Below are positions 2,673 through 42,682 of a DNA stretch of 64,000 bases, piece by piece. The first letter of the stretch is position 1, and every line of letters starts with the position of its first letter. Made by a program: the position numbers and the translations under genes. The notes under the pieces were generated by a model. It saw nothing but the letters and a program-made list of their open reading frames with translations, searched no databases and was not told the origin of the DNA. Source of the stretch: a virus (Duplodnaviria; Heunggongvirae; Uroviricota; Caudoviricetes); IMG/VR virus record IMGVR_UViG_3300025602_000002, positions 102,718 through 166,717 of that record. The stretch is one strand, 5' to 3'.

Positions 2673-2676
2673 ATTG

Positions 2677-2752
2677 TGGCCGGGACAGGGCTCGAACCTG
2701 TAGCTGACAGGGATTTAGAGTCCCCCGCTCTATCCAATTGAGCTACCCAGCC
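2677..2752 (-). tRNA. Amber suppressor tRNA (anticodon CTA); amino-acid identity undetermined
   Basis: GGCTGGG TA GCTC AATTGGATA GAGC G GGGGA-CTCTAAA-TCCCT GTCAGCT ACAGG-TTCGAGC-CCTGT CCCGGCC A. Positions 34-36 of the 7-nt loop are CTA, with U33 and A37 present. The acceptor stem pairs with one G-U. Confidence 0.7.
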
Positions 2753-5631: not shown

Positions 5632-5639
5632 TTTATTTT

Positions 5640-6330
5640 TTGGTTAAGTTATCAGTTATAAACTAAATCGCCGAATAGAAGGGATCTTGGGGCTCTATTC
5701 GACGACTCTTCTCCAGTATTGCTACTGGGTAAAGGTGTTTCAAGTTGTTCAGGTCGCTCACCGAGGATCTCATGAATGTTTGGCGTTAGTTCGATCGGTG
5801 ATCAACCCGATAGCGTAGGCCCTCTCAACAGATCGCTGTGTGCGATACATCCTCTGTTCCAATCGTACATCCTCTGTGCCCTCAAGGCAACTTGAAAGTT
5901 TAATTAATGTATATAAATAGTGTGCTGTTACGCCAAAGACAACTAGGAGGCACTCCTAGCTACAGCCCCCAATGCCTTTTCCCTGGAGGTAGATTTTATC
6001 CAACTGCTACGTCATGTTTAGAGCATGAGTTATCACTCTTTAAAAGATGGCTGCTTCTAAGCCTACTTCCTACTTATAATTTGGTCGCGAGTGTAGTTTA
6101 TTACACTACATTCCCTCTCTAACAAAGAGGTTCCTAGACTTAGACGAACTCGCGTTAATTGGTGGGGAAGTACAGGATCTTGCACCTGCGCTGATATGCA
6201 TCAGCATATATCCGGATAACTTCCCCTCTAGCAGTTAGGATAGGACTTAAACCTATATATGTTACTAATCGCCAGTGACTGTTCACGCCACCCGTTTTTC
6301 ACATGTCTTAGTCTATTTGGACGACCTAAC
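5640..6330. other. GC-rich structured noncoding region upstream of a tRNA cluster
   Basis: No ORF of 60 aa or more on the gene strand. GC content is visibly above the AT-rich coding regions. Stable hairpins such as CTAGGAG-GCA-CTCCTAG are present. Confidence 0.4.
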
Positions 6331-6333
6331 TAT

Positions 6334-6420
6334 TGGTTGCGGTGACAGGACTTTAACCTGTGTCCTCCCCCCTGCCTGGGGGGCGAGCTATTCTCTGCTC
6401 TACACCGCGCCTATTAGGTT
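6334..6420 (-). tRNA. Degenerate initiator-like tRNA element (pseudo-tRNA?)
   Basis: C1-A72 mismatch and a GCAACCA 3' end like the adjacent tRNA-fMet, with good D- and T-arms. The anticodon arm is CCCCC-CAGGCAG-GGGGG with A at position 33, so it is not a canonical decoding tRNA. Confidence 0.35.
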
Positions 6421-6467
6421 TATTGTACCTTATTAACTAATAGGATTATTGCCTTCCGACAATGAAT

Positions 6468-6545
6468 TGGTTGCGGGGGAGGGATTCGAACCCCCGACCT
6501 CAAGGTTATGAGCCTCGCAAGCTACCAGACTGCTATCACCCCGCG
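6468..6545 (-). tRNA. tRNA-fMet (initiator, CAT)
   Basis: Close match to the bacterial initiator: CGCGGGG...GGCTCATAACC...GGTTCGAATCC...CCCCGCAACCA, with the C1-A72 mismatch and an encoded CCA. Confidence 0.75.
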
Positions 6546-6614
6546 TTTGATTTTTAAATTGGTAGCTCTCAACCTCAGCTCATGAGGCCACGGTTTTGTG
6601 CACTGAGAGCCTTG

Positions 6615-6686
6615 TAGCGGGAGCGGGGATCGAACCCGCGTTGAAAGAGTTATGAGTCCTTTCCGGAAGCCAACATCCTTCCCGCG
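6615..6686 (-). tRNA. Atypical tRNA-like element with a CAT anticodon motif
   Basis: Perfect T-arm GCGGG-TTCGATC-CCCGC and a 6-of-7 acceptor stem, but the anticodon arm has a 9-nt loop ACTCATAAC. It may be a degenerate Met/Ile2-type tRNA. Confidence 0.3.
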
Positions 6687-6916
6687 TCTATTTCTTTTCC
6701 GGAGCATTTTCCAATGGACAACCTTTTAAAAGACCTCTATTTTTAAAGTCCGCCTTTTCTCCAAATTGTAACGTCCATTTATCCGGTTCTGACAGTTTGC
6801 TGATTAGAGGGCATCCAGTCCATTTAGGGCATTGGGAACAACTTCCCACCCTTATCATTTTTTGCATAACTGCTCCTTTATTTTGTATACTGGTTATATA
6901 CTTAAGTATAGTGGTT

Positions 6917-7303: not shown

Positions 7304-7840
7304 TTATTCTTTATATAGTTGATGTCCTATAATATAGCCAAAGATACTTCCGTCGAGTAATCTTCCAGCCAACTCATACTCAGCTTTACAAATGTGTTCT
7401 CTAACTTTACCGCTACTTGCGTGAGTATACTCTGAAATCTTTCCTAAATCAATCGACTCTATAGCTGCGCATTTTTTAATTTCATCAATATCCTGCCACT
7501 TATGAACTTCTAACCCAGTATCATCATCGCCTACATAAATTACAATATTCACATTATAATACATAATCTGTATATGATTAATTAAACTCATCATATACGT
7601 ATGGTTATAATGTAATATAAAGTTATTTGGGAAAGCTTTAGCACACATTGCTACTTTGTCGTTGTAATCGCTTTGAAGAGGTTGTTCTATTTTAAAGGGA
7701 TTAAATGACGGGCAAATAAGTAATAAATCTGAACTAGGGTATTCGGAGTTATATATTTTATTATTTAAGTATTCAACAGCTGCCATATGTCCCAAGTGAG
7801 GAGGATCAAATGACCCCCCGTATATGTGAATTGTTCTCAT
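7304..7840 (-). CDS. Nicotinamide/nicotinate mononucleotide adenylyltransferase
   Basis: N-terminal motif IYGGSFDPPHLGHM, the (H/T)xGH motif of this family. Confidence 0.75.
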   Translation of the reverse strand: MRTIHIYGGSFDPPHLGHMAAVEYLNNKIYNSEYPSSDLLLICPSFNPFKIEQPLQSDYNDKVAMCAKAFPNNFILHYNHTYMMSLINHIQIMYYNVNIVIYVGDDDTGLEVHKWQDIDEIKKCAAIESIDLGKISEYTHASSGKVREHICKAEYELAGRLLDGSIFGYIIGHQLYKE

Positions 7841-8433
7841 TATTTCATCCTTATATATTCGTAATTTGGAGATTCCATAAAAGATAATCCTGCTGCAAAT
7901 GACAGAAGTCTGCTTGAGATTTCTACTTTTTTTGCTTTTTCAGAGGCTATGAAACTAAGTAAATTATAACCATTAATTAAGATTATTTGGTCTATATCTT
8001 CAAAGTCTCCTAACGACTGTTGCTCTGGTAAGTAACTTCCTAAAGCTCCCATTACTAAATGAGTTGCTTCATCTGACATTCCTGCGGTATTGATGGCTGC
8101 AGGAAATACTCTACAAGCCCCGTCTACTTCATATCCAGTTTCCTCCAACAATTCTCTACGCATAGCGTCTTCTGGAGTTTCTCCCTCTTCTATCATACCT
8201 GCTGGAAATGACCAAATGTAGTTATCTAACGCAGGTCTCCACTCCTTAATTAGTAAGAATCTTCCAGAGCGGTCATGAAATACTCCCGCTACAGACTTTT
8301 GGTTTCCAATTCTTCTAACTATTTCCCAATCAGTAGTTTCTCCAGCTTCATTTTCTAGATTTAATGTTTCAGCTATTACATGTTGGGGCTCTATTAAAGC
8401 GTCTGATACAAATTTAATCTTAATTTTTGGCAT
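7840..8433 (-). CDS. Nudix hydrolase, possibly ADP-ribose pyrophosphatase
   Basis: Nudix box GMIEEGETPEDAMRRELLEETG. Confidence 0.75.
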   Translation of the reverse strand: MPKIKIKFVSDALIEPQHVIAETLNLENEAGETTDWEIVRRIGNQKSVAGVFHDRSGRFLLIKEWRPALDNYIWSFPAGMIEEGETPEDAMRRELLEETGYEVDGACRVFPAAINTAGMSDEATHLVMGALGSYLPEQQSLGDFEDIDQIILINGYNLLSFIASEKAKKVEISSRLLSFAAGLSFMESPNYEYIRMK

Positions 8434-9224
8434 TAGGCTATGTCCCTTAAAAAGCTTGGAATATTATCGCGTTTATGACGGCTATTGTTTATCATACTTT
8501 CGATATTATTCATAACTTCTACAGAAACCGGAGATGGTACATTTTCACAGTCCATAGTACTCCACCAAATCAAATAAGAATCTAGTTCTTGGTATGTAAA
8601 TCCAAATTCTTGTTCATCAGTTTGTCCTTCCCATAATCCCGCAGAAGCTACCGCATTTGCATATTCGTTAGGTAGCTCTAATTCTCTAGCTATTTCTCTA
8701 ACTTCAAATTTGTAAAACTCTAACAATGGTTCAAAATCTACTCCACCGTCTCCATATTTAGTAAAGTACCCTATTTCGTATTCAGACTTGTTAGTTGTTC
8801 CTATTACGAGGTTATTGGTACTATTTGCTAGCAGGTACAGTGCAGACATGCGGGCCCGGGCTTTCATATTCCCTTTTGTGAGGGTAGTTATTGCCTCTGT
8901 TTGGATATAAGTCATACCCTCTATCATGGCGTCTACAGAAGTGGTAATATCTATACAATTAAGGTTTAATTGGAGATGTTTTGCAAGAGCTAGTATATTA
9001 TCAGCTCCATGAAATAAATTAGATATTGAGGGAATAACTGTTTCATGGTAAGGCAGCCACACCGCCATAACCTTCTCTGGCCCTAAAGCTCTTTGAGCTA
9101 AAGCCGCAATTACTGCGGAGTCTACTCCTCCAGATAATCCTATGACTACCCCATCAGCACCTGCATCTTCTACTGTTCTTTTTATAAAATCTTGTAAGTC
9201 AATTATGTCTTGTCTAAGTTTCAT
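8433..9224 (-). CDS. nadE: NH3-dependent NAD+ synthetase
   Basis: PP-loop motif GLSGGVDSAV; length typical for NadE. Confidence 0.8.
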   Translation of the reverse strand: MKLRQDIIDLQDFIKRTVEDAGADGVVIGLSGGVDSAVIAALAQRALGPEKVMAVWLPYHETVIPSISNLFHGADNILALAKHLQLNLNCIDITTSVDAMIEGMTYIQTEAITTLTKGNMKARARMSALYLLANSTNNLVIGTTNKSEYEIGYFTKYGDGGVDFEPLLEFYKFEVREIARELELPNEYANAVASAGLWEGQTDEQEFGFTYQELDSYLIWWSTMDCENVPSPVSVEVMNNIESMINNSRHKRDNIPSFLRDIA

Positions 9225-9241
9225 CTGTTTTCCTTTTTAAA

Positions 9242-9640
9242 TTAAGCAAAGCAGTTGTTTAATATGGTAACCGCCCTGTGTATGTTGTTATCTATGTAAG
9301 CTATTCCTCCTGCAGCATTTACTAACTCTACAGTAGCTTTTAAACTTTTGAGCTGTCCTTTATCAAATCCATCAGGCCTAACGTGCAATATAGTTCGTTT
9401 GCCGTGGGTGTGTGCGCTATTTACAACTTCTGCTATGGAAAATACTCCTTGCATTTCTTTAGAAATAAGATAAAAATGTACATTACATTTATTGTCTTTT
9501 TCATCCATTTCTATTGCTTGGCACGCCTCTGTCCAGTCTTCCACATCTGGATTAAAGTAGTCTATAGTTAGTTGAGGAATTATTTGATTCCTCCAGGTTG
9601 TATGTGCGCAAGTGCCTCCTAAAAATACTCTGTTTATCAC
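9242..9640 (-). CDS. Hypothetical protein, possibly nucleoside 2-deoxyribosyltransferase-like fold
   Basis: 132 aa with an N-terminal MINRVFLGGT Rossmann-like start. Weak. Confidence 0.3.
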   Translation of the reverse strand: MINRVFLGGTCAHTTWRNQIIPQLTIDYFNPDVEDWTEACQAIEMDEKDNKCNVHFYLISKEMQGVFSIAEVVNSAHTHGKRTILHVRPDGFDKGQLKSLKATVELVNAAGGIAYIDNNIHRAVTILNNCFA

Positions 9641-9816
9641 TGTTCCTTTCCTTTTTTACTGTTTAAATCATCTTGGATATTGTTATAAGTTTTTAACAAT
9701 TTAGCTTTTTCTTTGGCTCGTTTTTGATCATCTCCAATAGCCCATAATTTTAGAAACCCAGTCCATGTGACTTGTGGTTTTTCTTTCTTTTCTTTCATTT
9801 ATCCTCTTTGTTATTA

Positions 9817-9905
9817 GTGGCTAGGACAGGACTCGAACCTGCATACGCACCATGCGTCCACTATATAGTATATCTACTGAAGTGTTACTGAGTCGAACAG
9901 CCTAC
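9817..9905 (-). tRNA. tRNA-like 3' half or degenerate tRNA
   Basis: Canonical T-arm GCAGG-TTCGAGT-CCTGT and an acceptor 3' strand CCTAGCC-A, but no complementary 5' acceptor strand could be found. An internal hairpin ACGCA-TGG-TGCGT is present. Confidence 0.25.
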
Positions 9906-9950
9906 TACGCGAAGATGTTTCCCAATTACATCACCTAACCATTTTTTTTG

Positions 9951-10023
9951 TGGGCCCTGCTGGACTCGAACCAGCATCCTACACATTATGAGTGTGTTGC
10001 TCAGCCAATTGAGCTAAAGGCCC
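9951..10023 (-). tRNA. tRNA-Met(CAT), elongator or Ile2-type
   Basis: Acceptor GGGCCTT/AGGGCCC, anticodon stem ACACA/TGTGT with loop CTCATAA, T-loop TTCGAGT. Confidence 0.75.
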
Positions 10024-10116
10024 TGGAGGAGAGGACAGGGATCGAACCTGCAGACCCCCTTGCGGGGGCGCACCGGTTTTCAAGACCGGCAGAATACCAT
10101 TCTCTTACACCTCTCC
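10024..10116 (-). tRNA. tRNA-Ser(TGA), class II
   Basis: Acceptor GGAGAGG/CCTCTCC, anticodon stem CCGGT/ACCGG with loop CTTGAAA, long variable arm GCGCCCCCGCAAGGGGGTC, encoded CCA. Confidence 0.7.
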
Positions 10117-10210
10117 GTAAAGAGCGACGCGATACTTTTTTCTGCAGTTATTATATTGCGCGCTCCCATCTCCTTCTGCTCTTACACGCAAGCGATGGCA
10201 GATGAGTCTG

Positions 10211-10282
10211 TGGCGAAAGATGGAATCGAACCACCGTCGCGTGGATCTTCAATCCACCGCTCTACCCCTGAGCTACCCCGCC
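10211..10282 (-). tRNA. tRNA-Phe(GAA)
   Basis: Anticodon stem GTGGA/TCCAC with loop TTGAAGA, T-loop TTCGATT. The acceptor stem has three G-U pairs. The 5' end overlaps the stop of CDS 10273..10776. Confidence 0.55.
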
Positions 10283-10776
10283 GGAGTATTTAATAATTTA
10301 ATTGCTTGTTCTACATGCTCATCTTGTAGACCTAAATCTGTTTTTGTTTGTACTAGTCGATCCATTAAATGCTCCATGTCTGAGTCATCGTCCAAAATTA
10401 TGAAGGAATCGGCTCTTTCGTGGTAATGTTCTTTAGAGAACTCAGGATCTGCGTCGTATTCGGCATTATGCTCATCAAGCCATTGTTGAATTTCTATGCC
10501 TCTTCTTTTATGTAGTCTTGGGGTACTCTTCCCTATTACGAAGGGTAAATTGAATCCCAAGGCAGCAAATAGATGTCTAAACATAAATGAATCACCATGA
10601 AGTCTCCAAGTTGAGGATACTACTATTTGTGCTCCAGTTGCGTCAATTATTTGCTTTAAGCGTTCTACTAGCGTTATGTCTGGAAGCCATACATTTCCTA
10701 ACTTTTCTTCATGTCGTTTATGTACCGACTCACGATTATTGAGTACGCCGTCGATATCTAAAAATATTACTTTCAA
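10273..10776 (-). CDS. HAD-superfamily phosphatase
   Basis: Motif I (V)IFLDIDGVLN. A TTG start is likely. The TAG stop lies within the 5' end of tRNA-Phe. Confidence 0.5.
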   Translation of the reverse strand: MKVIFLDIDGVLNNRESVHKRHEEKLGNVWLPDITLVERLKQIIDATGAQIVVSSTWRLHGDSFMFRHLFAALGFNLPFVIGKSTPRLHKRRGIEIQQWLDEHNAEYDADPEFSKEHYHERADSFIILDDDSDMEHLMDRLVQTKTDLGLQDEHVEQAIKLLNTPAG

Positions 10777-11133
10777 TTATTCAATTCCTTCTTCTTTTTT
10801 CCATTTCTGGTAACGTTCAACTCTTTCCAAATATATCTCATACTCGGCTCGAGTTCCGCCTTTGCACCCTCCGTGACCGTCTGATCTGATCTGCCAACCA
10901 ACAAAGGCATAATGATCCTTGCATTTAGCTTCATATTTCGCTAATTCGTCTTCTTCAATAGGAAAAAAGTCATAAATTTCTGTTAAACGTTTAAAGGTGT
11001 AGTTGTCATGAGCGTTTGCTCTTGTGCCGTCTGAATATTTTATAGGTTTATAGCTTCTATAGCAATTGTTTGATTCGTCTAATTCCCATATATAGGAATC
11101 GTCTGGCCTGACTATATATTTTGGATTTTTCAT
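10777..11133 (-). CDS. Hypothetical protein
   Basis: ORF of 118 aa, same frame as and adjacent to the HAD phosphatase. Confidence 0.4.
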   Translation of the reverse strand: MKNPKYIVRPDDSYIWELDESNNCYRSYKPIKYSDGTRANAHDNYTFKRLTEIYDFFPIEEDELAKYEAKCKDHYAFVGWQIRSDGHGGCKGGTRAEYEIYLERVERYQKWKKEEGIE

Positions 11134-11153
11134 TTTTTAGTTCCTAAGTTAAT

Positions 11154-11242
11154 TGGGGTGTCGGACGGGATTTGAACCCGCATGAGGAGCAACTCCAACT
11201 CGGGTCACAGCCGAGTGCATTACCAAATCTGCCACCGACAAC
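11154..11242 (-). tRNA. tRNA-His(GTG) with an encoded G-1 and a long variable arm
   Basis: Anticodon stem CTCGG/CCGAG with loop CTGTGAC. The extra 5' G pairs with discriminator C73, which is the His identity element. CCA is encoded. The 17-nt variable arm and a U1-C72 mismatch are unusual. Confidence 0.5.
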
Positions 11243-11243
11243 G

Positions 11244-11327
11244 GGCTGATGGTAGGATTCGAACCTACGTGGACTTTCGTCACCTGATTACAAATCAGGA
11301 CCTTTCGACCGCTCAGGTAACACCAGC
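11244..11327 (-). tRNA. tRNA with anticodon TGT (Thr-like) and class-II-like long variable arm
   Basis: Acceptor GCTGGTG/CATCAGC, anticodon stem CCTGA/TCAGG with loop TTTGTAA, T-arm GTAGG-TTCGAAT-CCTAC. The architecture is atypical. Confidence 0.45.
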
Positions 11328-11337
11328 TCTATTTAAA

Positions 11338-11362
11338 AGTGGGGACGCTTGGCCCCCACGTA
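11338..11362 (-). terminator. Rho-independent terminator downstream of the NAMPT gene
   Basis: Hairpin GTGGGG-ACGCTTG-GCCCCCAC followed on the minus strand by TTTTAAATAG. Confidence 0.5.
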
Positions 11363-11363
11363 T

Positions 11364-12509
11364 TTAAACCTTTAATATTTGTTTACATAACGCAATCTCG
11401 TCTGGATCGCCTGTATGTTTTCCCGGGGAATCTGACAACTTAATAGCTGGTTCCCATACATCATTTAATTTAACAGCGTTAATTTTGATTACCATATTCA
11501 ATGGTGTAACGTCTGTATCATTAGTGAAGTTGGTACCAATTCCGTAAGCCGTTTTAATGTGCTTATTCACTTCTTTTTCGATGTGTACCGCTTTTTCGAG
11601 ATTTAAACTGTCTGAAAAGATTATTAATTTACTTTTCGGATCAATGTTTAAATGCTCATAGTGGTTAATAATTTTGTTAGCAAACACAAGCGGGTCCCCA
11701 CTGTCTTGCCTCACACCGTCAAATAGTTTAGAATACTTCATGGCAAATTCTTTAAGAAAAACGTCTGTAGTAAAGGTATCTGGTAAAGCTGTTCCCAGAC
11801 TTCCTTGAAACACTTCTACCCATTTCTCTAATACCATAGTAGTTGCCATCTTGTAACCGTATAGGCGTGATAAGACCATATATACTTCGTGAGCTTGTGT
11901 ACCTGTTGGGGTTAAATTATATTTTTTGGCAAAATGAACATTAGAGGTTCCTACCAATCCATGCTTTAAAATATTAAGAGTTTTATCATGTACGTCATAA
12001 GAGTGCCTTCGTCTAGTTCCGAAGTCGGCTACGCTTAAATGATTATCGTGTATAATTCTCAATTTTTCTATATTCTGTTTTTCTAACTCATACAGCGGGC
12101 TTAATTCCCCATTAGACATCTCTGAAATAATAGCCATAATAGGTACTTCCCACAGTATAGTCCTATACCAGGGACCTCTAATACATATCTCAAATTGATG
12201 TTGTTTACCGGGTTCATAAATTACTTCTACTTCAGAAGAGTCATACGCATACCCTTTTAAAAAGTCCCTATACACGGGAGTGAAATAATAACATTTCTTT
12301 TTTAAAAAAGTTGCTTCTGAATCAGTTAACCGTAGTGATCCCATTGCGTTAATATTGCTTATCAATTTTGTAGCAAACGAGTCACTAAACTCAACTGGAG
12401 TTCTCAATATCCACTTGTATTCTACTTCCAGGTTTGGAAATTGCTGACAAACAAACATTTGTTGTGTAAATTTATATATGTCGTTATCTAAAATTGAATT
12501 AATTAACAT
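11364..12509 (-). CDS. nadV: Nicotinamide phosphoribosyltransferase (NAMPT/NadV-like)
   Basis: 381 aa, consistent with NadV homologs (call from family-level resemblance, no specific motif cited). Part of the NAD salvage cluster. Confidence 0.8.
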   Translation of the reverse strand: MLINSILDNDIYKFTQQMFVCQQFPNLEVEYKWILRTPVEFSDSFATKLISNINAMGSLRLTDSEATFLKKKCYYFTPVYRDFLKGYAYDSSEVEVIYEPGKQHQFEICIRGPWYRTILWEVPIMAIISEMSNGELSPLYELEKQNIEKLRIIHDNHLSVADFGTRRRHSYDVHDKTLNILKHGLVGTSNVHFAKKYNLTPTGTQAHEVYMVLSRLYGYKMATTMVLEKWVEVFQGSLGTALPDTFTTDVFLKEFAMKYSKLFDGVRQDSGDPLVFANKIINHYEHLNIDPKSKLIIFSDSLNLEKAVHIEKEVNKHIKTAYGIGTNFTNDTDVTPLNMVIKINAVKLNDVWEPAIKLSDSPGKHTGDPDEIALCKQILKV

Positions 12510-12802
12510 TATTTGGTATCCTTTCCAGAGTGTATTGTACGTAATACGGTTAGGCTGGAAGAACCGTCAACCACCTCTATTATACAACGCTCGATAGCAT
12601 AGTCTTTCAATAAAAAGTGTCTTTCTGCTATCTTTCTCCAACCGTAGTTATCGTATCCTTGAACGTCTATTTTAGTGGGACTAACTTTAGTTATTGCCCA
12701 CCTACGTTGTGTCCAGTATGACGGAATGTGGTCTTCGCCAGTACTAGCTCGTACCGTTATAACGTCATCTACTTTTAATTTAAACATCTGTTTCCTCTCC
12801 AT
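12509..12802 (-). CDS. Hypothetical protein
   Basis: ORF of 97 aa; its stop overlaps the nadV start (ATGA overlap). Confidence 0.4.
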   Translation of the reverse strand: MERKQMFKLKVDDVITVRASTGEDHIPSYWTQRRWAITKVSPTKIDVQGYDNYGWRKIAERHFLLKDYAIERCIIEVVDGSSSLTVLRTIHSGKDTK

Positions 12803-12940
12803 TAAGTTTATCGAGTTTTCTACAAATTTGTAATAGAAGTATATCTGTAAGGGTTAGTCTGCCATTTCCAAATTTGGTTTCCAAAATAAGTTGTAAATCC
12901 TCATCTATGGTAGCTTCTAAAGGTAGTATAACCTCACTCA

Positions 12941-13276
12941 TTAATAAACCTTCTCGAGTATTTCCCAACGTGCCTCGGGAATATTAATTACTTGAACTAT
13001 TTCGCCATTGACAAAAAAAGTTAGTTTGTTGTCACCTATTGACACACGATCCGCTAAGTATTCTTTGTCATATTTAATATTATAAGCTTTGTCATAAACT
13101 GTAAGAGTATAGGTAGTTCTAGAATCATTTCCATAACCTAATTCTGTTTTCGTACCATTCGCATCTATAACACCAGAATTAAAAAGCTTTGGTATTGCCA
13201 CTGAGCCTATAATCCCTGCAATTACTAGAACAATAATTAGTTCTATTATTGTAAATCCTTTTTTACTTCCATTCAT
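12941..13276 (-). CDS. Type IV pilin-like (prepilin N-terminus) protein
   Basis: N-terminus MNGSKKGFTIIELIIVLVIAGIIGSVAIP matches the class III signal (G|FTLIE). Confidence 0.4.
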   Translation of the reverse strand: MNGSKKGFTIIELIIVLVIAGIIGSVAIPKLFNSGVIDANGTKTELGYGNDSRTTYTLTVYDKAYNIKYDKEYLADRVSIGDNKLTFFVNGEIVQVINIPEARWEILEKVY

Positions 13277-13724
13277 TTTCTTTTAGTTCCTTTCTTACTT
13301 TCATTAATGCTTTTCCTAAAAGGTTTGTACCTTTACCATTTTTTCCGATGCCCCATATTGCGTCGTTCCATTCAGCCGCGTCTTCTATTAATTCTGCATC
13401 TTGTGTACATAGTAAAATCTTTTTGTAAAGATCTATTTTGAATTTTTCTCTTAAGCACATAACCATAATGTCATATTTTACTTCTTCCCAATCTGGGCGA
13501 AGATTTACTTTATTACCCGCACGTTTAGATTTGCCAGGGGTTTTTAACTGTGCTATTTCTTTACGTATTGTGTTATTAAATGTTTTATGTGCTTGAAACG
13601 CATGCTCTACTGTTGGATATTCAATACCTTCTATAGTAATAGGGGAATGTGCAAAATTAGAAAAATATTGATCATAGCCTGATGGCTTCTTTGCGGAGAA
13701 AATTATTTGGTTTGTGTTTTTCAT
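13263..13724 (-). CDS. NADAR-domain (YbiA-like) protein
   Basis: Motif FSNFAHSPITIEGIEYPTVEHAFQAHKT resembles the NADAR/DUF1768 core. Confidence 0.45.
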   Translation of the reverse strand: MKNTNQIIFSAKKPSGYDQYFSNFAHSPITIEGIEYPTVEHAFQAHKTFNNTIRKEIAQLKTPGKSKRAGNKVNLRPDWEEVKYDIMVMCLREKFKIDLYKKILLCTQDAELIEDAAEWNDAIWGIGKNGKGTNLLGKALMKVRKELKENEWK

Positions 13725-15825: not shown

Positions 15826-15834
15826 ATAAATTAG

Positions 15835-15906
15835 AGCCTAGGGAAGGAGTTGAACCTCCATTTCTCTTAGCGGACTAAGAGCGTCTTACCATTAGACGAC
15901 CACGGC
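15835..15906 (-). tRNA. tRNA-like element with an 18-nt anticodon arm (possible 8-nt anticodon loop)
   Basis: D-arm CGTC-TAATGGTAA-GACG and T-arm GGAGG-TTCAACT-CCTTC. The anticodon arm CTCTT-AGTCCGCT-AAGAG is one nt longer than canonical. The acceptor stem has two central mismatches. Confidence 0.35.
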
Positions 15907-15908
15907 GT

Positions 15909-15981
15909 TGGTTGGGGGTGTGGGATTTGAACCCACATTCGCCTGCCTCTGCAGACGTCCTTTACGTTGGATGAGCCCCCA
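15909..15981 (-). tRNA. tRNA-like element with encoded CCA and a tetraloop in place of the anticodon loop
   Basis: Perfect T-arm GTGGG-TTCAAAT-CCCAC and an ACCCCCA-A-CCA 3' end. The central arm is TCTGC-AGAG-GCAGG with only a 4-nt loop. Confidence 0.3.
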
Positions 15982-17098: not shown

Positions 17099-17776
17099 TT
17101 ACCAAGAAACTTTTCTTATTTTTAATAGAAAATCATTTACTAATTTTGAGTTAGCTTCTTTTTTTGTAGACTTATTAAACGCGTCTTCTAGTTTTTCTTC
17201 CCAAGAGCTACAAGTTTTTATAACCTCTGGTATAGTAGATTCGCCTTCCTTATATTTTCTGCAAAGAATGCCTACTTCTGTATCAGCTATTCTGGCTGTA
17301 AAATCGCCAGTTTGTAATAGTTCGTATCCATTATATAACATTCTTAACCAGGCCGCTGATGATTTTCTTTTTCTAATGGTATCTAATTCTACATTTCCAT
17401 TACTAAGGGCTTCATCATTTTCTAAAAGCTTTTTGCGTTGCGATTGAGCATAACCCCTGTACGAGTGGAAAACTAATTTAGAACTCCAAACGTCTGGAAA
17501 TAGACTTCTTAACTCTTCACACCAGTTCTCGTTTTCTGTAGTAAATGTCGCTTTAAAAGTTTCCAGAATTGTAGGATTACTTCTTAATGCGAAATGTAGA
17601 AATCTAGCTAATTCCCAGGTATCTGCTGGATCCTTTGGATCGCTGGGCTGGTGCTCTGGTAAAGCTAAAATATTTGAAGTAGTCTCAATAAATACAGTTT
17701 TATAATCGAAATCACTTATAGGAGTATCTAACCCATGCAATCTACTTCCTACTAACGCTCTCATTAATAATCTCAT
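17099..17776 (-). CDS. Pol-beta-superfamily nucleotidyltransferase
   Basis: GS-x-D-x-D motif GSRLHGLDTPISDFDY near the N-terminus. Confidence 0.45.
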   Translation of the reverse strand: MRLLMRALVGSRLHGLDTPISDFDYKTVFIETTSNILALPEHQPSDPKDPADTWELARFLHFALRSNPTILETFKATFTTENENWCEELRSLFPDVWSSKLVFHSYRGYAQSQRKKLLENDEALSNGNVELDTIRKRKSSAAWLRMLYNGYELLQTGDFTARIADTEVGILCRKYKEGESTIPEVIKTCSSWEEKLEDAFNKSTKKEANSKLVNDFLLKIRKVSW

Positions 17777-17804
17777 TTATAATTCCCTATTGTTAATAAT
17801 TGTT

Positions 17805-17836
17805 AAAAAAAAGACCCAGCGAGTGATCGCCGGGCC
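17805..17836 (-). terminator. Rho-independent terminator
   Basis: Hairpin CCCGGCGA-TCAC-TCGCTGGG followed on the minus strand by an 8-T run. Confidence 0.5.
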
Positions 17837-17901
17837 TAATTTCAAAGATATAAAGCGGTTAAGCTTTATAATGTCTTTTATTGACGATCTACATAGAAGC
17901 G

Positions 17902-18288
17902 CTAGCCTTCGCTAACTGTGAACTCCTGTGGAGTGAATTTCCCTTTTACAGGTATGGCGATGGTTAAAACACCACGAACTAGCGAACTAGTTAATTTTCC
18001 ATAATTAAAATGTTCACCGTTCTGTAATGGAAATTCGTTATAGAAACCTTTACAGAAAGTTCCTTTACCAATCTCTTTATCCGGTCCAGCTGTCACTAAC
18101 AGGCGGTCATGAGTTGAAGGCGAATTGCCGAACGCAGTTCCAGCCTTAGCTATTCTAATTTTAATGTTAGAAGCCTGATAACCTGGTACTAATAGCTCAA
18201 CCATTACGTTTGGCTCGTTCCAGTACAGTACGAAGTCTACTGCATCATATTTTTTATCGTCACTTAATTTTGAGTATAAATTGCTCAT
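17902..18288 (-). CDS. Hypothetical protein
   Basis: 128 aa, TAG stop. Confidence 0.4.
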   Translation of the reverse strand: MSNLYSKLSDDKKYDAVDFVLYWNEPNVMVELLVPGYQASNIKIRIAKAGTAFGNSPSTHDRLLVTAGPDKEIGKGTFCKGFYNEFPLQNGEHFNYGKLTSSLVRGVLTIAIPVKGKFTPQEFTVSEG

Positions 18289-18300
18289 TTGTTGTCTTGA

Positions 18301-19992
18301 TTATTTCATTTTTAGTTGATACATCCGATTCATTTCATAGAACCGAACAATATTGCCCTCGTGGGCCAGTGTCATCGACGACTTGATGGCAGAGTCTTTG
18401 TAGACCTGCACATCACTTGAAGCCTTAGCGCGAAACATTTCTAAAGCGCCATCTTCATGTATACTTATAGTTAATCCGTTAGGTAGGCAGATAAAATTCA
18501 ACATATTATCTGCGTCCTTCAAGATTCTTATATCATATTTTTTGAAATTTTCATCGAATACGATAATAAATTTATCATACTTGCTGCCTGATTGTCCTAT
18601 TATCATACAAACCCTGTCTCGGCATTTTGCATCAATTATCTTGTACTTATCTAGTTCAGGAATTGCTACAATTGCACATTTGTTGGGTGCGTATGGTAAA
18701 TATAAATGAGTTTTACCTAAAATACTAGAACATAATACTCCATCTAACATTTCTGTAGAATTATTGAATATTTCCCAAGTATTTAAAATATAAAACGTAG
18801 GCTTTGAGCCGGTATCTAATACATCTATTTCAAAAAATCTATCCTTGTTTACGCCATATAGCCTATTTTCGTATATCATAGTTTTTTCAACCTTAATATT
18901 TGTACTATGATAAGGAGATTGGCTATCTTCCAATGATCTGTATACTAAAGATTCATCCTTAGTTTTCACAAGAAACGTCTTTTGAGACATACTGTGTGAA
19001 AAAACCTTGGAGGTGGTATCTTTAATATAACTATTATTGTTATATATGACAACATCTTTTTTGGTATATATTATATACTGTCTACCAAAATAAGTGCAGT
19101 CAATTATGTCGCCAGGATAATCGTTTAATTGTTGTATTGTAAAATATTTGCTTCCGGTGTGTGTTGTTATTATAGGAGTTATTGGAAGTATAATGTACTG
19201 CCCTTTCATGTCTGGAGGAGTACTTCTATAACCATTTTCAAATACTTCTTTAAACCAATCATAATAACTCTTAGGTATATTTGTAAAGTCCCTTACTGCG
19301 CCCGGAACACGCGTTTCAGGGTTAAAGATTGATACGTTTGCTCTCATACGTTCTTCTAATGTAGCTCGTTTAAAGTGAGAATTCTTTCCCTTATATGGGT
19401 GAATTCCTATAAACAGTTGACAAGCTATTACAGCGAAGGAAAACCAATCTGAAATTTCTGTGAATTCTGTAGCATGCCAATCTCTAATAGAGGGCATAAT
19501 TACTGTAGCTGGATAATTAGGAGTTTGCCATGAGTTTACATCTATACAATAAGCAGTAGTATGCTTTCTAGTTTCTATTAAATAATTTAATTCGTTACCA
19601 TCGACCATTATTATGTCATGATCGTGCACATGACTAATTGTATCCTTAATATTTGTAACTAATTTAGTAACGGTATCGTTATTTAAATTGTTTCTATTAA
19701 GATACGCAGATGTAAACATTCTTGGTAATGGAATAGACTGAGGTACAGTCTGCATCATAAATCCTATTAACGTGTTTTTTGTAGTGTAAATTAAATTCTC
19801 AGGTTTTATAATGGTATTCTTAGTAAGAACTGACAGTTCCCTAATTTTTTCTTCAGGTATCATAGTTTTTGGGTCATGAAATATTTTATAAGCTCTTCCA
19901 CCTTTTACATATACTTTACCCTCTCCACCTTGAGCTACAAAATTAGAGTCTAATAATGATACTTGCCCCTTTCCTTGTACTAAAACCTTCAT
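18301..19992 (-). CDS. Ser/Thr protein kinase-like protein
   Basis: Glycine-rich loop with an invariant Lys (AQGGEGKVYVKGGRAYKIF) and a catalytic-loop-like segment HDIIMVDGNELN. Confidence 0.5.
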   Translation of the reverse strand: MKVLVQGKGQVSLLDSNFVAQGGEGKVYVKGGRAYKIFHDPKTMIPEEKIRELSVLTKNTIIKPENLIYTTKNTLIGFMMQTVPQSIPLPRMFTSAYLNRNNLNNDTVTKLVTNIKDTISHVHDHDIIMVDGNELNYLIETRKHTTAYCIDVNSWQTPNYPATVIMPSIRDWHATEFTEISDWFSFAVIACQLFIGIHPYKGKNSHFKRATLEERMRANVSIFNPETRVPGAVRDFTNIPKSYYDWFKEVFENGYRSTPPDMKGQYIILPITPIITTHTGSKYFTIQQLNDYPGDIIDCTYFGRQYIIYTKKDVVIYNNNSYIKDTTSKVFSHSMSQKTFLVKTKDESLVYRSLEDSQSPYHSTNIKVEKTMIYENRLYGVNKDRFFEIDVLDTGSKPTFYILNTWEIFNNSTEMLDGVLCSSILGKTHLYLPYAPNKCAIVAIPELDKYKIIDAKCRDRVCMIIGQSGSKYDKFIIVFDENFKKYDIRILKDADNMLNFICLPNGLTISIHEDGALEMFRAKASSDVQVYKDSAIKSSMTLAHEGNIVRFYEMNRMYQLKMK

Positions 19993-20768
19993 AATATTAT
20001 TCCAGCAATTCCAATATCGTCTGCGTTAGTAATATAATTTCTATTCCAGGTTTTCTTAAGAAACCTTAGTTTTCTTACAGCGAATGCTCCTGCGGCACTT
20101 GGGAAATGAGTGATGATATCATCAATCACTACTCTCTCTCCAGTATCCCTATCTATTACTTGGTCTATACCATCAGTAGTTAAAATTACCGAAGCTATCG
20201 GGTAATCAGGCTGAAATATAAAGGGCATTCCAGTTTCTAATGCTACATTGGTAGGATCCTCGTCACCATCATTCATGTGAACAACTGTTTGTCCTTTGTC
20301 CTTTAAACACTCTTTGTATTCTTCCTGATCTTTTCGAGTAATGTTATACGCAGGATAGTATGGAGTATTATGAGGTGATTGAATATCTATATGAAGCGGT
20401 CCTTCTTTTGAATCTAAGAAACAATGTCCATCTCCGGCCATAAGAATATAAAAGCTTTGTTTTTCTTTATTATAGATAGCTACCAACACAGTTGACAGCA
20501 GCATACGGCGGTCCAGGCCTTGGACATCAGTATAACCTTTACATAATTGAAGTTGCCACTCTAATTTTTGACGAGTCAGCTCTCCAAATTCTCTAATGGC
20601 TTGTTCTACACTATGGGCTATTAATCTAGCTCCAAAATCTGTGTGAGGAGCGCTTGAACACCCATCACATACAATAATATAAGCTATCTCATCTGTTTCC
20701 CCATGAAGTGTATAATCTTCACAAACCCGATGAGTGGCCCCTTGAATAAAATGTGAATCTATGTTCAT
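19989..20768 (-). CDS. PP2C-family Ser/Thr phosphatase-like protein
   Basis: GATHRVCEDY...IVCDGCSS...DDIGIAGIIL resemble PP2C motifs. The TGA stop overlaps the kinase ATG. Confidence 0.45.
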   Translation of the reverse strand: MNIDSHFIQGATHRVCEDYTLHGETDEIAYIIVCDGCSSAPHTDFGARLIAHSVEQAIREFGELTRQKLEWQLQLCKGYTDVQGLDRRMLLSTVLVAIYNKEKQSFYILMAGDGHCFLDSKEGPLHIDIQSPHNTPYYPAYNITRKDQEEYKECLKDKGQTVVHMNDGDEDPTNVALETGMPFIFQPDYPIASVILTTDGIDQVIDRDTGERVVIDDIITHFPSAAGAFAVRKLRFLKKTWNRNYITNADDIGIAGIIL

Positions 20769-20797
20769 AGTTTTCCTTTTAATAAGAACGAACGTAA

Positions 20798-20865
20798 CAG
20801 CGCGGATTGGATTCGAACCAATGTCTAGGGTATCCCCTAACTCTACCCTGCTGAGATACCGCCCC
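20798..20865 (-). tRNA. Short tRNA-like element (about 68 nt) with a tetraloop central arm
   Basis: T-arm ATTGG-TTCGAAT-CCAAT and a 6-of-7 acceptor stem. The central arm is TAGGG-GATA-CCCTA. Confidence 0.25.
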
Positions 20866-20896
20866 GTTACGCCGTTTCTTACGTACGTTTTGTAAG

Positions 20897-21661: not shown

Positions 21662-21691
21662 TGATAATCTCCTTTATCTTTGTGTGTTTGT

Positions 21692-22555: not shown

Positions 22556-22609
22556 TTTGTTTTTTTTCCTTTTCTAACTTGTATGTTATTATTTCGTCAG
22601 TTTATTAAT

Positions 22610-23524: not shown

Positions 23525-23548
23525 TTTGTATTTCCTTTTATTTATGGC

Positions 23549-24997: not shown

Positions 24998-24998
24998 T

Positions 24999-41975: not shown

Positions 41976-41999
41976 ATTTTGGTCGAAATTGGGTGTAAG

Positions 42000-42660: not shown

Positions 42661-42682
42661 TCTTCTTCAGGATGTAGTAGTA

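What the first reader, a model, noticed from the sequence alone, without database searches (positions are those of the whole stretch)
5640..6700. About 800-bp GC-rich ORF-free structured region followed by an initiator tRNA and two initiator-like degenerate tRNAs
5640-6470 is the longest non-coding stretch on the gene-dense minus arm. It is visibly GC-richer than its surroundings and contains strong hairpins. Immediately 3' lie a bona fide tRNA-fMet (C1-A72, ...CCCCGCAACCA) and a second element (6334-6420) with the same C1-A72 and GCAACCA ends, good D- and T-arms, but a non-decoding anticodon arm (CCCCC-CAGGCAG-GGGGG, with A at position 33). A third CAT-containing tRNA-like element has a 9-nt loop. 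This could be a large ncRNA (a group I-like intron or another structured RNA), a decayed tRNA array, or tRNA-like decoys.
Basis: seen in the sequence. Interest (0 to 1): 0.5.

Follow-up and report, generated by a model that had tools for sequence, protein, structure and literature searches.

The report
Phage mimic of ribosomal GTPase-centre RNA
The "non-coding kilobase" is not one big RNA: it is a row of worn-down initiator-tRNA copies followed by a 165-nt RNA that copies the ribosome's L11-binding "GTPase centre". I found this apparently unannotated RNA gene in more than 100 other large phages, usually inside their tRNA clusters.

Summary
Window 5632-6690 (minus strand) has no credible ORF, is richer in G+C than its surroundings, and starts with three Met/initiator-like tRNA elements. 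It is a composite, not one large ncRNA or intron.

(1) 6686-6083 is a tight array of seven tRNA-shaped modules. Only one (6545-6468) is a near-canonical initiator-type tRNA-Met. The others are degenerate initiator-derived copies, and five modules end in stem+ACCA.

(2) 6077-5913 is a 165-nt RNA homologous to the 23S rRNA L11/thiostrepton-binding domain (H42-H44). It has a 101-nt insertion just before the H44 loop.

The same architecture occurs in at least 105 non-redundant viral contigs and about 25 cultured large or jumbo phages, always unannotated. It lies on the strand of neighbouring tRNAs, and no protein-coding gene family recurs beside it. Its closing helix and the 1058:1080 pair covary strongly, while the factor-contacting 1067 loop is relaxed. 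No Rfam family covers it, and I found no paper describing it.

(3) 5912-5709 remains unexplained. A 16-bp hairpin (5708-5665) ends the block.

Most likely the RNA acts in trans as an rRNA-domain decoy, for host uL11 or for another protein that recognises this domain. That step is inferred, not shown.

The parts
6614..6686 (-). tRNA-like A: a degenerate tRNA-Met paralogue. It has C1xU72, the loop CUCAUAA inside a 9-nt loop, a canonical T arm, an aberrant D arm and no CCA.
   Evidence: ARAGORN finds it only at 85% threshold. My own tRNA model gives 27.4 bits and the initiator profile gives E = 3.5e-4. Fold.
6560..6611 (-). Minihelix A2: an 8-bp stem GGCUCUCA/UGAGAGCU enclosing a CCUCA-UGAGC-UGAGG hairpin, followed by ACCAAUU.
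   Evidence: Read from the sequence. Stem+NCCA scan. Local fold z = -2.9.
6468..6545 (-). tRNA-Met(CAU) B: initiator-type acceptor (C1xA72) with encoded ACCA. This is the only near-canonical tRNA of the block.
   Evidence: ARAGORN; Rfam tRNA 35.6 bits; own model R1 47.2 bits. It is 80-89% identical to tRNA-Met genes of many phages.
6334..6409 (-). tRNA-like C: initiator-derived (C1xA72, G2-C71, C3-G70, A11:U24, ACCA). The anticodon arm is replaced by CCCCCC-AGGCA-GGGGGG (A33, no CAU) and the D loop lacks GG.
   Evidence: Rfam tRNA 45.3 bits; R1 35.1 bits; initiator profile 21 bits. Its 3' half is 92% identical to the Geminicoccus flavidas initiator tRNA, including the T loop UUAAAGU.
6231..6331 (-). 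tRNA-like D (weak): a 7-bp acceptor AGUUAGG/CCUAACU and a T arm AUAGG-UUUAAGU-CCUAU that is paralogous to C's T arm, around about 50 nt of unassigned insert. No CCA.
   Evidence: Direct-repeat family D3. T-arm hit of 6.6 bits. Strict cloverleaf scan. The fold is not significant, z = -0.9.
6160..6227 (-). tRNA-like E: an 8-bp acceptor GGGGAAGU/ACUUCCCC plus ACCAAUU, a closed hairpin GCUGAU-GCAU-AUCAGC in place of an anticodon arm, and a T arm GCAGG-UGCAAGAU-CCUGU.
   Evidence: Fold z = -3.96. R1 full-length hit of 7.2 bits, which is weak. Stem+ACCA scan.
6083..6154 (-). tRNA-like F: a complete cloverleaf with all 21 stem pairs intact (CGCGAGU/ACUCGCG plus ACCA). Anticodon-type loop UUGUUAG (GUU). 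The D loop (4 nt) and T loop (GUAAUAA) are non-canonical. It abuts the 5' end of the rRNA-mimic RNA.
   Evidence: R1 17.4 bits, E = 0.002 over the whole window with filters off. Fold z = -3.1.
5913..6077 (-). 165-nt RNA mimicking the 23S rRNA GTPase-associated centre (E. coli 1048-1111, H42 top/H43/H44; the L11- and thiostrepton-binding domain).
   Evidence: Rfam LSU_rRNA_bacteria local hit at 6019-6077, 29.2 bits, E = 5e-7, model positions 1089-1152. Family architecture and covariation. The unconstrained MFE recovers the closing helix, H43 and H44.
6070..6077 (-). 5' strand of the closing (H42-like) helix, AUAAGUAG. It pairs with 5920-5913.
   Evidence: All 8 pairs of this helix covary across 44 family members.
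6035..6068 (-). H43 hairpin plus junction: AAG-UA-GGCUUAGAAGCAGCC-AU-CUU-UUAAAGAGU (rRNA positions 1057-1090).
   Evidence: Identical to the rRNA consensus in the H43 loop and the junction. The pair 1058:1080 is UA 43, GC 39, AU 19, CG 3, GU 1 in 105 members. A1057, G1059 and U1060 are invariant although they lie outside the search pattern.
5934..6034 (-). Lineage-variable insertion (101 nt here) between U1090 and G1091. It holds several hairpins, including CUAGGAG-UGC-CUCCUAG.
   Evidence: Insertion length is 27-287 nt (median 144) in 46 members. It has no Rfam match.
5913..5933 (-). H44 loop GCGUAACAGC (rRNA 1091-1100), then ACA, then the 3' strand of the closing helix CUAUUUAU (5920-5913).
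   Evidence: The motif G[CU]GUA[AG][CU]AG[CU] followed by a strand complementary to the 5' flank occurs in 51 of 112 members. Pair counts.
5709..5912 (-). Unassigned about 200 nt (G+C about 0.45-0.5). It holds a 15-nt direct repeat at 5846-5860 and 5866-5880 and a T-arm-like AUCGG-GUUGAUCA-CCGAU.
   Evidence: Repeat family D4; the repeat occurs nowhere else in the window. No local fold signal, no model hit and no coding signal.
5665..5708 (-). 16-bp hairpin GAGUCGUCGAAUAGAG...UUCUAUUCGGCGAUUU followed by AGUUUAU. It may be a terminator or stabiliser, 34 nt before the next ORF.
   Evidence: Stem list. Local fold z = -3.8. The terminator scanner does not call it because the loop is longer than 8 nt.

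Best explanation
The block is a string of small stable-RNA genes co-transcribed on the minus strand with the phage's tRNA arm.

First comes an array of seven tRNA-shaped modules. They descend from two lineages of CCA-encoding initiator tRNAs. One module (B) is probably still a working initiator-type tRNA-Met. The others have lost decoding features but keep an acceptor/T-arm helix, mostly with an encoded ACCA. That would still make them RNase P and 3'-trimming substrates, so they can act as processing handles.

Directly after the last module lies a 165-nt RNA that is a structural copy of the 23S rRNA GTPase-associated centre (H42-H44), the autonomous domain that binds ribosomal protein uL11. 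It belongs to a widespread, unannotated family of phage RNA genes that sit in tRNA clusters.

The most likely mechanism is this. The RNA is cut out of the tRNA precursor, folds like the rRNA domain, and acts in trans as a decoy. It would bind host uL11, or another protein that recognises this rRNA domain, and so change how host ribosomes signal or are attacked during infection.

Shown: homology to the rRNA domain, the conserved and covarying structure, the wide distribution and the tRNA context. Inferred: expression and processing, the binding partner and the benefit to the phage.
For: Homology to the rRNA domain: Rfam LSU local hit of 29.2 bits, E = 5e-7, covering exactly the 58-nt L11-binding domain.

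Family size and distribution:
None is true rRNA.
- About 25 cultured phages, always in unannotated gaps on the gene strand.

Conserved structure:
- With the insertion masked, 95.5% of pair cells are standard pairs, against 75.1% in shuffles and 26-51% when the partners are slid.
- All 8 closing-helix pairs show double changes (163 cells). The covariation score is 0.513 against 0.125.
- The pair 1058:1080 is paired in 105 of 105 members with four Watson-Crick types.
- A1057, G1059 and U1060 are invariant although they were not in the search pattern.
- The 1067 loop, which is universally conserved in ribosomes (my knowledge), is relaxed: A 81, G 22, U 2. This points to selection on the fold and core rather than on the factor-contact surface.

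Context:
- 80 of 112 members have a tRNA within 1.5 kb. In all 80 at least one is on the same strand; only one member also has an opposite-strand tRNA.
- In pf16 and UNO-G1W1 the RNA sits between two tRNAs.
- No neighbouring protein family recurs (at most 8 of 111 loci), as expected for a trans-acting RNA.

tRNA-like array: model scores, folds, enrichment of stem+ACCA (5 in 0.53 kb against 0.16 per kb in the background), initiator ancestry of A, B and C, and the absence of an encoded CCA in the window's other tRNAs.
Against: - There is no expression, processing or binding data, so uL11 as the partner is inference from what the rRNA domain does in ribosomes.
- The insertion sits next to junction nucleotides that matter for the rRNA tertiary fold, and might alter binding.
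- Only 51 of 112 members show the H44 motif with my strict pattern. The rest may differ.
- Family sampling was driven by a pattern, so several core columns are invariant by construction.
- This phage has no close relatives carrying the same array. Conservation of the tRNA-like modules therefore cannot be tested, and they may be plain decay products. Low-scoring tRNA-like hits also occur in other huge-phage loci.
- About 200 nt (5912-5709) remain unexplained.
Confidence: 0.55

Rival explanations
1. The rRNA-domain mimic is a decoy for an enzyme or toxin that attacks or modifies this part of 23S rRNA, not for uL11. Candidates are an ADP-ribosyltransferase, a nuclease or a methyltransferase used in host immunity or competition. 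The RNA would soak it up and protect the ribosomes that translate phage mRNA.
For: - A bacterial Rhs toxin is reported to ADP-ribosylate 23S rRNA in the GTPase-associated centre (title and abstract of PMC8661411, listed).
- This window carries an unusually dense counter-defence set: NADAR, Nudix, NAPRTase, NMN adenylyltransferase and NAD synthase, plus polynucleotide kinase-phosphatase, two RNA ligases, RlaP and an RNA-repair HAD domain.
- The H44 loop GUAAYA and the core are conserved.
Against: - No anti-phage system that targets this rRNA domain was found in my literature searches.
- The family has no recurrent neighbouring gene, and most members lack this window's NAD and repair context.
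- The 1067 loop is variable, so anything that recognises that loop is not the target.
Confidence: 0.22
2. Nothing here is functional. The block would be evolutionary debris: a captured piece of host 23S rRNA plus a graveyard of duplicated initiator tRNAs decaying in a large genome that tolerates junk.
For: - This phage has no relatives sharing the array, and its closest SpoU relative (77% identity) has different neighbours.
- Modules A, D and E score poorly as tRNAs.
- Degenerate tRNA-like hits are also seen in other huge-phage tRNA regions and elsewhere in this window.
- G+C (0.44) lies between that of tRNAs and intergenic DNA.
Against: - For the rRNA mimic this is excluded. There are at least 105 non-redundant copies in unrelated phages, with the insertion at the same site. 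The closing helix covaries and differs from rRNA, and exactly the autonomous domain is retained.
- For the tRNA-likes, every stem of C and F is intact while the loops are heavily altered.
- The three G-C pairs of C's anticodon stem are all flipped to C-G relative to initiator tRNAs without losing pairing.
Confidence: 0.1
3. The mimic is a cis-regulatory leader, like ribosomal-protein leaders or the 23S-methyl motif. It would control the downstream 119-aa ORF and the SpoU-family methyltransferase by binding a protein that normally binds this rRNA domain.
For: - A SpoU_methylase gene lies 640 nt downstream on the same strand.
- From my own knowledge, the thiostrepton-resistance methyltransferases that 2'-O-methylate A1067 in this same hairpin belong to the SpoU family.
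- rRNA mimicry in leaders is an established mechanism.
Against: - None of the 38 loci that encode SpoU homologues in other huge phages holds the element.
- The family has no conserved downstream gene. Its constant neighbours are tRNAs, and it often lies between two tRNAs.
- About 280 nt and a strong hairpin separate it from the next start codon.
- The phage protein is annotated by JGI as TrmL-like.
Confidence: 0.06
4. The whole 5640-6333 stretch is a single large structured RNA: a group I-like intron, a GOLLD/ROOL-like RNA or a divergent tmRNA.
For: - The whole-region fold has z = -3.45 on the minus strand.
- A possible long-range duplex joins the two ends at -16.6 kcal/mol; 5% of background pairs are as good.
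- Related huge phages do carry tmRNAs.
Against: - No Rfam hit to any intron, GOLLD, ROOL, RNase P or tmRNA family, even at E up to 10. The only tmRNA signal is a 17-bit T-arm match at 6622-6674.
- The region resolves into independently closed modules.
- In other phages the rRNA mimic occurs without the rest.
Confidence: 0.03

Closest known systems
23S rRNA GTPase-associated centre (58-nt L11/thiostrepton-binding domain, H43-H44 with the top of H42; E. coli 1051-1108)
   Same: The three-way-junction architecture is the same. The H43 hairpin and the junction sequence (GGCUUAGAAGCAGCC-AUC-UUUAAAGAGU) are near-identical. The H44 loop GCGUAAYAGC, the U1082-A1086 pair, and U1060 and A1088 are conserved.
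   Different: - It is a stand-alone element of about 100-350 nt in phage genomes, not part of a 2.9-kb rRNA.
- It carries a 27-287-nt insertion between U1090 and G1091.
- The closing helix has free sequence.
- The 1067 loop is variable.
- It scores below the Rfam gathering threshold (29.2 against 50 bits).
Ribosomal-protein autoregulatory leaders that mimic rRNA binding sites (for example the L10 leader RF00557, and the L1 and L20 leaders)
   Same: An RNA outside the ribosome reproduces an rRNA protein-binding site. The L10 leader mimics the neighbouring part of the same rRNA region (my knowledge).
   Different: Leaders are cis-acting, lie upstream of the r-protein's own gene and are cellular. 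This RNA has no conserved downstream gene, sits among tRNAs, is viral, and is much closer in sequence to the rRNA. There was no hit to any leader family.
Phage-encoded RNA decoys (pseudo-ToxI antitoxin RNAs, RNA anti-CRISPRs that mimic CRISPR repeats, nuclease-evading phage tRNAs)
   Same: A phage carries a small RNA that imitates a host RNA in order to engage a host protein (my knowledge). It sits in an accessory, counter-defence-rich region.
   Different: The imitated molecule is a ribosomal RNA domain, which to my knowledge has not been described. The target is unknown.
T4 stable RNAs C and D (species 1 and 2) and tRNA pseudogenes in phage tRNA clusters
   Same: These are non-tRNA or degenerate tRNA-like stable RNAs encoded inside a phage tRNA cluster and presumably released by tRNA processing enzymes (my knowledge; not tested here).
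   Different: There is no sequence relationship. T4 did not appear among the hits. The elements here are initiator-tRNA derivatives with an encoded CCA.
tRNA-like processing signals (plant mitochondrial t-elements, mascRNA)
   Same: They are acceptor/T-arm minihelices without decoding capacity that mark RNase P/Z cleavage sites next to another RNA. Module F abuts the 5' end of the rRNA mimic.
   Different: Those are eukaryotic or organellar systems. The resemblance rests on structure alone. The mascRNA model hit was chance-level (15.6 bits).

Membership tests
Bacterial 23S rRNA (Rfam RF02541), GTPase-associated-centre region | H43 hairpin with the 1067 loop, plus the junction sequence | tested here: met
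   The local alignment is identical to the consensus over GGCUUAGAAGCAGCCAUC.UUUAAAGAGU.
Bacterial 23S rRNA (Rfam RF02541), GTPase-associated-centre region | Base-paired H43 lower stem (1057-1059:1079-1081) and closing helix (1048-1055:1104-1111) | tested here: met
   95.5% of cells are paired. All 8 closing pairs and the pair 1058:1080 covary.
Bacterial 23S rRNA (Rfam RF02541), GTPase-associated-centre region | H44 loop GCGUAAUAGC directly following the junction | tested here: not met
   The loop is present (GCGUAACAGC at 5933-5924) but separated from the junction by a 101-nt insertion. The insertion is 27-287 nt across the family.
Bacterial 23S rRNA (Rfam RF02541), GTPase-associated-centre region | Part of a full-length rRNA gene; reaches the Rfam gathering score | tested here: not met
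   The score is 29.2 bits against 50. Only model positions 1089-1152 of 2925 match. The flanks are tRNA-like elements. None of the 118 viral copies continues as rRNA.
tRNA (Rfam RF00005) | Cloverleaf scoring at or above the 29-bit gathering score | tested here: met
   B scores 35.6 bits and C scores 45.3 bits. A, D, E and F get no Rfam tRNA hit at E up to 10. With my own model they score A 27.4, F 17.4, E 7.2 and D 6.6 bits, the last for the T arm only.
tRNA (Rfam RF00005) | 7-nt anticodon loop with U33 and a purine at position 37 | tested here: not met
   Met by B and F. Not met by C (CAGGCAG, A33), E (a 4-nt loop) or A (effectively a 9-nt loop).
Bacterial initiator tRNA | C1xA72 mismatch | tested here: met
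   B and C have C1xA72. A has C1xU72 and F has a paired C1-G72.
Bacterial initiator tRNA | Three consecutive G-C pairs (29-31:39-41) in the anticodon stem | tested here: not met
   B has A29-U41, G30-C40 and G31-C39. C has the reversed orientation, C:G.
Bacterial initiator tRNA | CAU anticodon and A11:U24 | tested here: inconclusive
   B has CAU, but its D stem has an extra nucleotide and a U-U pair. C has A11:U24 but no CAU.
Group I intron, GOLLD, ROOL, RNase P RNA, tmRNA (Rfam families) | Match to the family covariance model | tested here: not met
   There are no hits at the gathering threshold or at E up to 10 on slices. The only tmRNA signal is a 17-bit T-arm match at 6622-6674. ARAGORN finds no tmRNA at its default threshold.
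Ribosomal-protein leader (cis-regulatory rRNA mimic) | Located in the 5' UTR of the gene for the protein it binds | tested here: not met
   No r-protein gene or any other recurrent gene lies downstream. The neighbours are tRNAs.
uL11-binding RNA (functional class) | Binds uL11 with the affinity of the rRNA domain | not testable with these tools
   This needs a binding assay. Only the conservation of the fold-determining nucleotides could be shown.

The most novel reading that the evidence does not exclude
Large phages of many lineages carry, inside their tRNA clusters, a trans-acting RNA gene that imitates the ribosome's GTPase-associated centre. After release by tRNA-processing enzymes it would sequester host uL11, which is needed for RelA activation, and so blunt the stringent response. 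Alternatively it would decoy an immunity factor aimed at this rRNA domain. That would make it the first rRNA-domain decoy in a virus. In this phage it comes with a set of tRNA mimics that lack an anticodon: C and E here, plus 15834-15906, 15912-15981 and 20798-20865. These may likewise be non-decoding decoys or processing handles.
Probability: 0.35. Interest if true: 0.9.

Novelty: new variant of a known kind. Interest (0 to 1): 0.8.

Why it matters
If the RNA is expressed and binds uL11 or another factor specific to the GTPase centre, it would show that phages manipulate the ribosome with a copy of a piece of rRNA, not only with proteins and tRNAs. It would give a direct handle on how jumbo phages deal with stringent-response signalling or with ribosome-targeted immunity.

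It would also add a widespread, easily recognised RNA gene to phage annotation. It is currently blank in about 25 cultured phage genomes and in more than 100 metagenomic ones. It would explain part of the unexplained spacer found in phage tRNA arrays.

The natural series of insertions at one site of a well-studied RNA fold is also a ready-made data set for RNA structural biology.

Tried and rejected
- Coding explanations. Six-frame translation with the stop types marked and Pfam/PHROG scans of the longest open stretches gave nothing.
- Synteny-based comparison.
  - The flanking 119-aa ORF is an ORFan, one cluster that is 100% identical in 48 contigs.
  - SpoU and DUF7831 relatives at 46-77% identity are not syntenic.
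  - Two other contigs of the same phage are 99.98-100% identical, so there is no strain variation to exploit.
- GenBank phages. A search with the whole region found only tRNA-Met matches. The rRNA-like core was missed until it was queried alone.
- Rfam. The whole window and a 1.3-kb slice missed the LSU hit. Only slices of 704 nt or less showed it.
- Pattern scans for the odd loop of module C. The viral scan gave chance hits only. The single metagenome scan was filled by chance hits in GC-rich DNA.
- 'Anticodon-less tRNA' descriptor. It was too permissive, because canonical tRNAs pass once G-U pairs are allowed. I therefore do not claim this class for F.
- Compensatory changes between B and C as proof of selection. 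I rejected this after finding natural initiator tRNAs with C's acceptor and T arm.
- Long-range end-to-end helix of the whole spacer. It is only borderline.
- A second rRNA-like piece, such as the sarcin-ricin loop, inside the insertions. Not supported.
- Promoter motif search in intergenic regions. Nothing was found.
- Linkage to SpoU. Absent in other phages.
- Relatives of the PP2C gene next to the tRNA-like element at 20798. None in IMG/VR.
Full report
CONTEXT. The window is an accessory arm of a large phage. Its G+C is 0.369. ARAGORN tRNAs, all on the minus strand, including a CUA suppressor. The genes are almost all on the minus strand. They include polynucleotide kinase-phosphatase, two RNA ligases, RlaP, an RNA-repair HAD domain, NAPRTase, NAD synthase, NMN adenylyltransferase, Nudix, NADAR, a SpoU methylase and an RNase T-like exonuclease. 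The same DNA occurs in many public assemblies. In NCBI it sits in a MAG labelled Candidatus Scalindua sp., which is probably a binning error.

CHECKING THE OBSERVATION. On the minus strand the block between ORF 6933-6688 and ORF 5631-5272 has no ORF of 60 aa or more. All frames carry all three stop types. The longest open stretches have no Pfam or PHROG match. G+C is 0.43-0.44, against 0.353 for other intergenic DNA. ARAGORN and Rfam confirm tRNA-Met 6468-6545 and the tRNA-shaped 6334-6409. The third element, 6614-6686, needs relaxed thresholds. The minus strand folds better than shuffles (z = -3.45) and the plus strand does not (z = -1.21). In 90-nt windows the signal is confined to a few modules.

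THE 5' HALF IS AN ARRAY OF tRNA-SHAPED MODULES.
- Reading the minus strand, I found further modules that are closed by 7-8-bp helices and packed 2-5 nt apart.
- A covariance model built from 15 canonical tRNAs of this window was run without filters over the whole window. It gave B 47.2, C 35.1, A 27.4, F 17.4 (E = 0.002), E 7.2 and the T arm of D 6.6 bits. It gave nothing in 6082-5640.
- C, E and F fold on their own into closed three- or four-way junctions, with z = -3.1 to -4.0.
- Five modules (A2, B, C, E, F) end in a stem followed by ACCAA(U/A). The background rate of that configuration is 0.16 per kb, against 5 in 0.53 kb here. The window's other tRNAs do not encode CCA.
- A and B are sequence paralogues.
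- The 3' half of C is 92% identical to the initiator tRNA of Geminicoccus flavidas, including the unusual T loop UUAAAGU. D and E share that T-arm type.
- The array therefore derives from two lineages of CCA-encoding initiator tRNAs.
- C keeps the initiator acceptor and D stem. Its anticodon arm is a closed G+C hairpin, and its three initiator G-C pairs are all flipped to C-G. That is hard to reach by neutral decay.
- I cannot test conservation, because no relative carries the array.
- Low-scoring tRNA-like hits also occur in other huge-phage loci and elsewhere in this window. Plain birth-and-death of tRNA genes therefore remains a fair default for A, D and E.

THE KEY RESULT. Rfam on the whole window and on a 1.3-kb slice had shown nothing in the spacer. 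On a 704-nt slice the laxer filters revealed a local match of 6019-6077 (minus strand) to bacterial LSU rRNA: model positions 1089-1152, 29.2 bits, E = 5e-7. That interval is the GTPase-associated centre. By established knowledge it is the autonomously folding 58-nt domain (E. coli 1051-1108) that binds uL11 and thiostrepton.

A blastn search with this piece alone found the same core in unannotated intergenic gaps of many cultured large phages, on the strand of the flanking genes and often between tRNAs. These are:
- GAP32, CBB, Serratia BF, the Erwinia pEa_SNUABM phages and Yersinia fHe-Yen9-03/04;
- Xanthomonas XaC1, XbC2 and XacN1;
- Pseudomonas pf16, Astolliot, Milchi and UNO-G1W1;
- Ralstonia RSP15, Acinetobacter ME3, Aeromonas 4_4572 and Vibrio 2.275.O.

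Short 'phage' records and Paenibacillus phage Pd_22F are real host 23S sequence, and I excluded them. None continues as rRNA.

ARCHITECTURE OF THE FAMILY. Downstream of the invariant junction UUUAAAGAGU the sequences diverge. After 27-287 nt (median 144), 51 of 112 non-redundant members show the H44 loop G[CU]GUA[AG][CU]AG[CU]. It is followed by ACAC and then by a strand complementary to the 8 nt that precede the H43 stem. So the whole rRNA domain is kept: the top of H42, H43, the junction and the H44 loop. A variable insertion lies between U1090 and G1091.

I masked the insertion and aligned 44 members. For the rRNA structure, pair counts gave the following:
- 95.5% standard pairs, against 75.1% in shuffles (0 of 500 reach it) and 26-51% when partners are slid;
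- 163 cells with changes on both sides, against 53 in shuffles;
- covariation score 0.513 against 0.125;
- all eight closing-helix pairs covary.

These closing-helix columns were not part of any search pattern. In 105 members the pair 1058:1080 is UA 43, GC 39, AU 19, CG 3 and GU 1. A1057, G1059 and U1060 are invariant although unselected. The 1067 loop varies: A 81, G 22, U 2 at 1067, and G 70, A 33 at 1068.

In the window the element spans 6077-5913, with a 101-nt insertion. The unconstrained MFE recovers the closing helix, H43 and H44. It starts 5 nt after tRNA-like module F.

CONTEXT OF THE FAMILY. Of 112 members, 80 have a tRNA within 1.5 kb. In all 80 at least one is on the same strand, and only one member also has an opposite-strand tRNA. 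In 64 members a same-strand tRNA lies within 400 nt. All-against-all clustering of neighbouring ORFs found no family present in more than 8 of 111 loci. The SpoU gene next to it here is not linked to it elsewhere. The insertions have no Rfam match. No Rfam family other than LSU rRNA matches, apart from a 13-bit chance-level DUF805b hit. Seven full-text searches found no description of such an RNA. A survey of over ten thousand candidate structured RNAs in viruses does not mention 23S or L11.

INTERPRETATION. Shown: homology to the rRNA domain, a conserved and covarying fold, wide distribution, tRNA-cluster context and the absence of a linked protein gene. Inferred from this:
- The RNA is a stand-alone gene, released from tRNA precursors.
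- Selection acts on the fold and on the core that, in ribosomes, binds the C-terminal domain of uL11, not on the factor-contacting loop.
- The most economical mechanism is a trans-acting decoy for uL11. The plausible consequence would be ribosomes or free pools altered in RelA-dependent signalling.

The main rival is a decoy for an enzyme that targets this rRNA domain. An Rhs toxin that ADP-ribosylates 23S rRNA in this centre is known (PMC8661411), and the window is rich in NAD-salvage and de-ADP-ribosylation genes. I put the identity of the element at about 0.95, uL11 as the partner at about 0.4-0.5, and any specific physiological role lower.

WHAT REMAINS UNEXPLAINED. The stretch 5912-5709 has G+C of about 0.45-0.5. 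It holds a local 15-nt direct repeat 20 nt apart and a T-arm-like hairpin. It has no fold signal, no model hit and no coding signal. The block ends in a 16-bp hairpin at 5708-5665, 34 nt before the next ORF.

VERDICT. The feature that matters is a member of a widespread, apparently undescribed family of phage RNAs that mimic the ribosomal GTPase-associated centre.

Noticed in passing
window 15834-15906, 15912-15981, 20798-20865 (minus strand): Three more tRNA-shaped elements with canonical T arms whose 'anticodon arm' is a closed 5-7-bp hairpin with a 4-nt loop (UCCG, AGAG, GAUA). 15912-15981 also ends in an encoded ACCA. 20798-20865 stands alone between two protein genes. ARAGORN and Rfam miss the last two; my tRNA model gives each 33.5 bits.
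   Followed up: partly
window 9818-9940 (minus strand); L035 2820-2942: tRNA-model hits of 123 nt with about 50 extra nt in the anticodon region. The window copy (37.1 bits) looks like a composite of two decayed tRNAs with two T-arm-like hairpins. The L035 copy (55.5 bits) looks like an intact tRNA with a 52-nt insert in the anticodon loop.
   Followed up: partly
window 2676-2752 (minus strand): A suppressor tRNA with anticodon CUA (reads UAG), which ARAGORN calls 'Pyl'. Whether the phage recodes TAG was not examined. The region studied shows no TAG-only interrupted ORF.
   Followed up: no
window 7304-13724 and 17099-26735: A dense counter-defence and repair set: NMN adenylyltransferase, Nudix, NAD synthase, NAPRTase, NADAR, an RNA-repair HAD domain, RlaP, a protein kinase and PP2C pair, polynucleotide kinase-phosphatase and two RNA ligases.
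   Followed up: partly
window 41812-42682: An 871-nt stretch without a minus-strand ORF of 50 aa or more, G+C 0.33. It is longer than the gap under study and was not examined.
   Followed up: no
window 11154-11241 and 11243-11327 (minus strand): tRNA-His and tRNA-Thr are 85-88 nt long and carry an extra arm in the variable region. That is unusual for these isotypes.
   Followed up: no
whole window; L041, L055: The contig is deposited in NCBI as part of a 'Candidatus Scalindua sp.' MAG (protein MBT6047694.1), but its content is phage. Copies from different samples are 99.98-100% identical over 8-9 kb. It is absent from IMG/VR.
   Followed up: partly
L194 5111-5137 and 5324-5349 (Clostridia MAG, goat omasum): Two copies, 213 nt apart, of an initiator-tRNA 3' half (GGUUAAAGUCC...CCGCAACCA) that ARAGORN does not call as tRNAs. 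They may be integration-site duplicates.
   Followed up: no
GenBank 'phage' records OR845016, OR850018, PQ520109, KM209255, MZ092003 (83976-84013) and others: Many short records labelled as phages, and the end of Paenibacillus phage Pd_22F, contain genuine host 23S rRNA sequence. This is probably contamination or transduced DNA.
   Followed up: partly
L018 445-796; L063 2978-3360: tmRNA genes in huge-phage contigs that also carry the SpoU homologue or B-like initiator tRNAs.
   Followed up: no
GAC-mimic family, rRNA position 1072: C1072 is U in 38 of 105 members. All 44 aligned members that pass the strict H44 motif have C1072. This hints at a tertiary covariation with the H44 pair that C1072 contacts in rRNA.
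   Followed up: no
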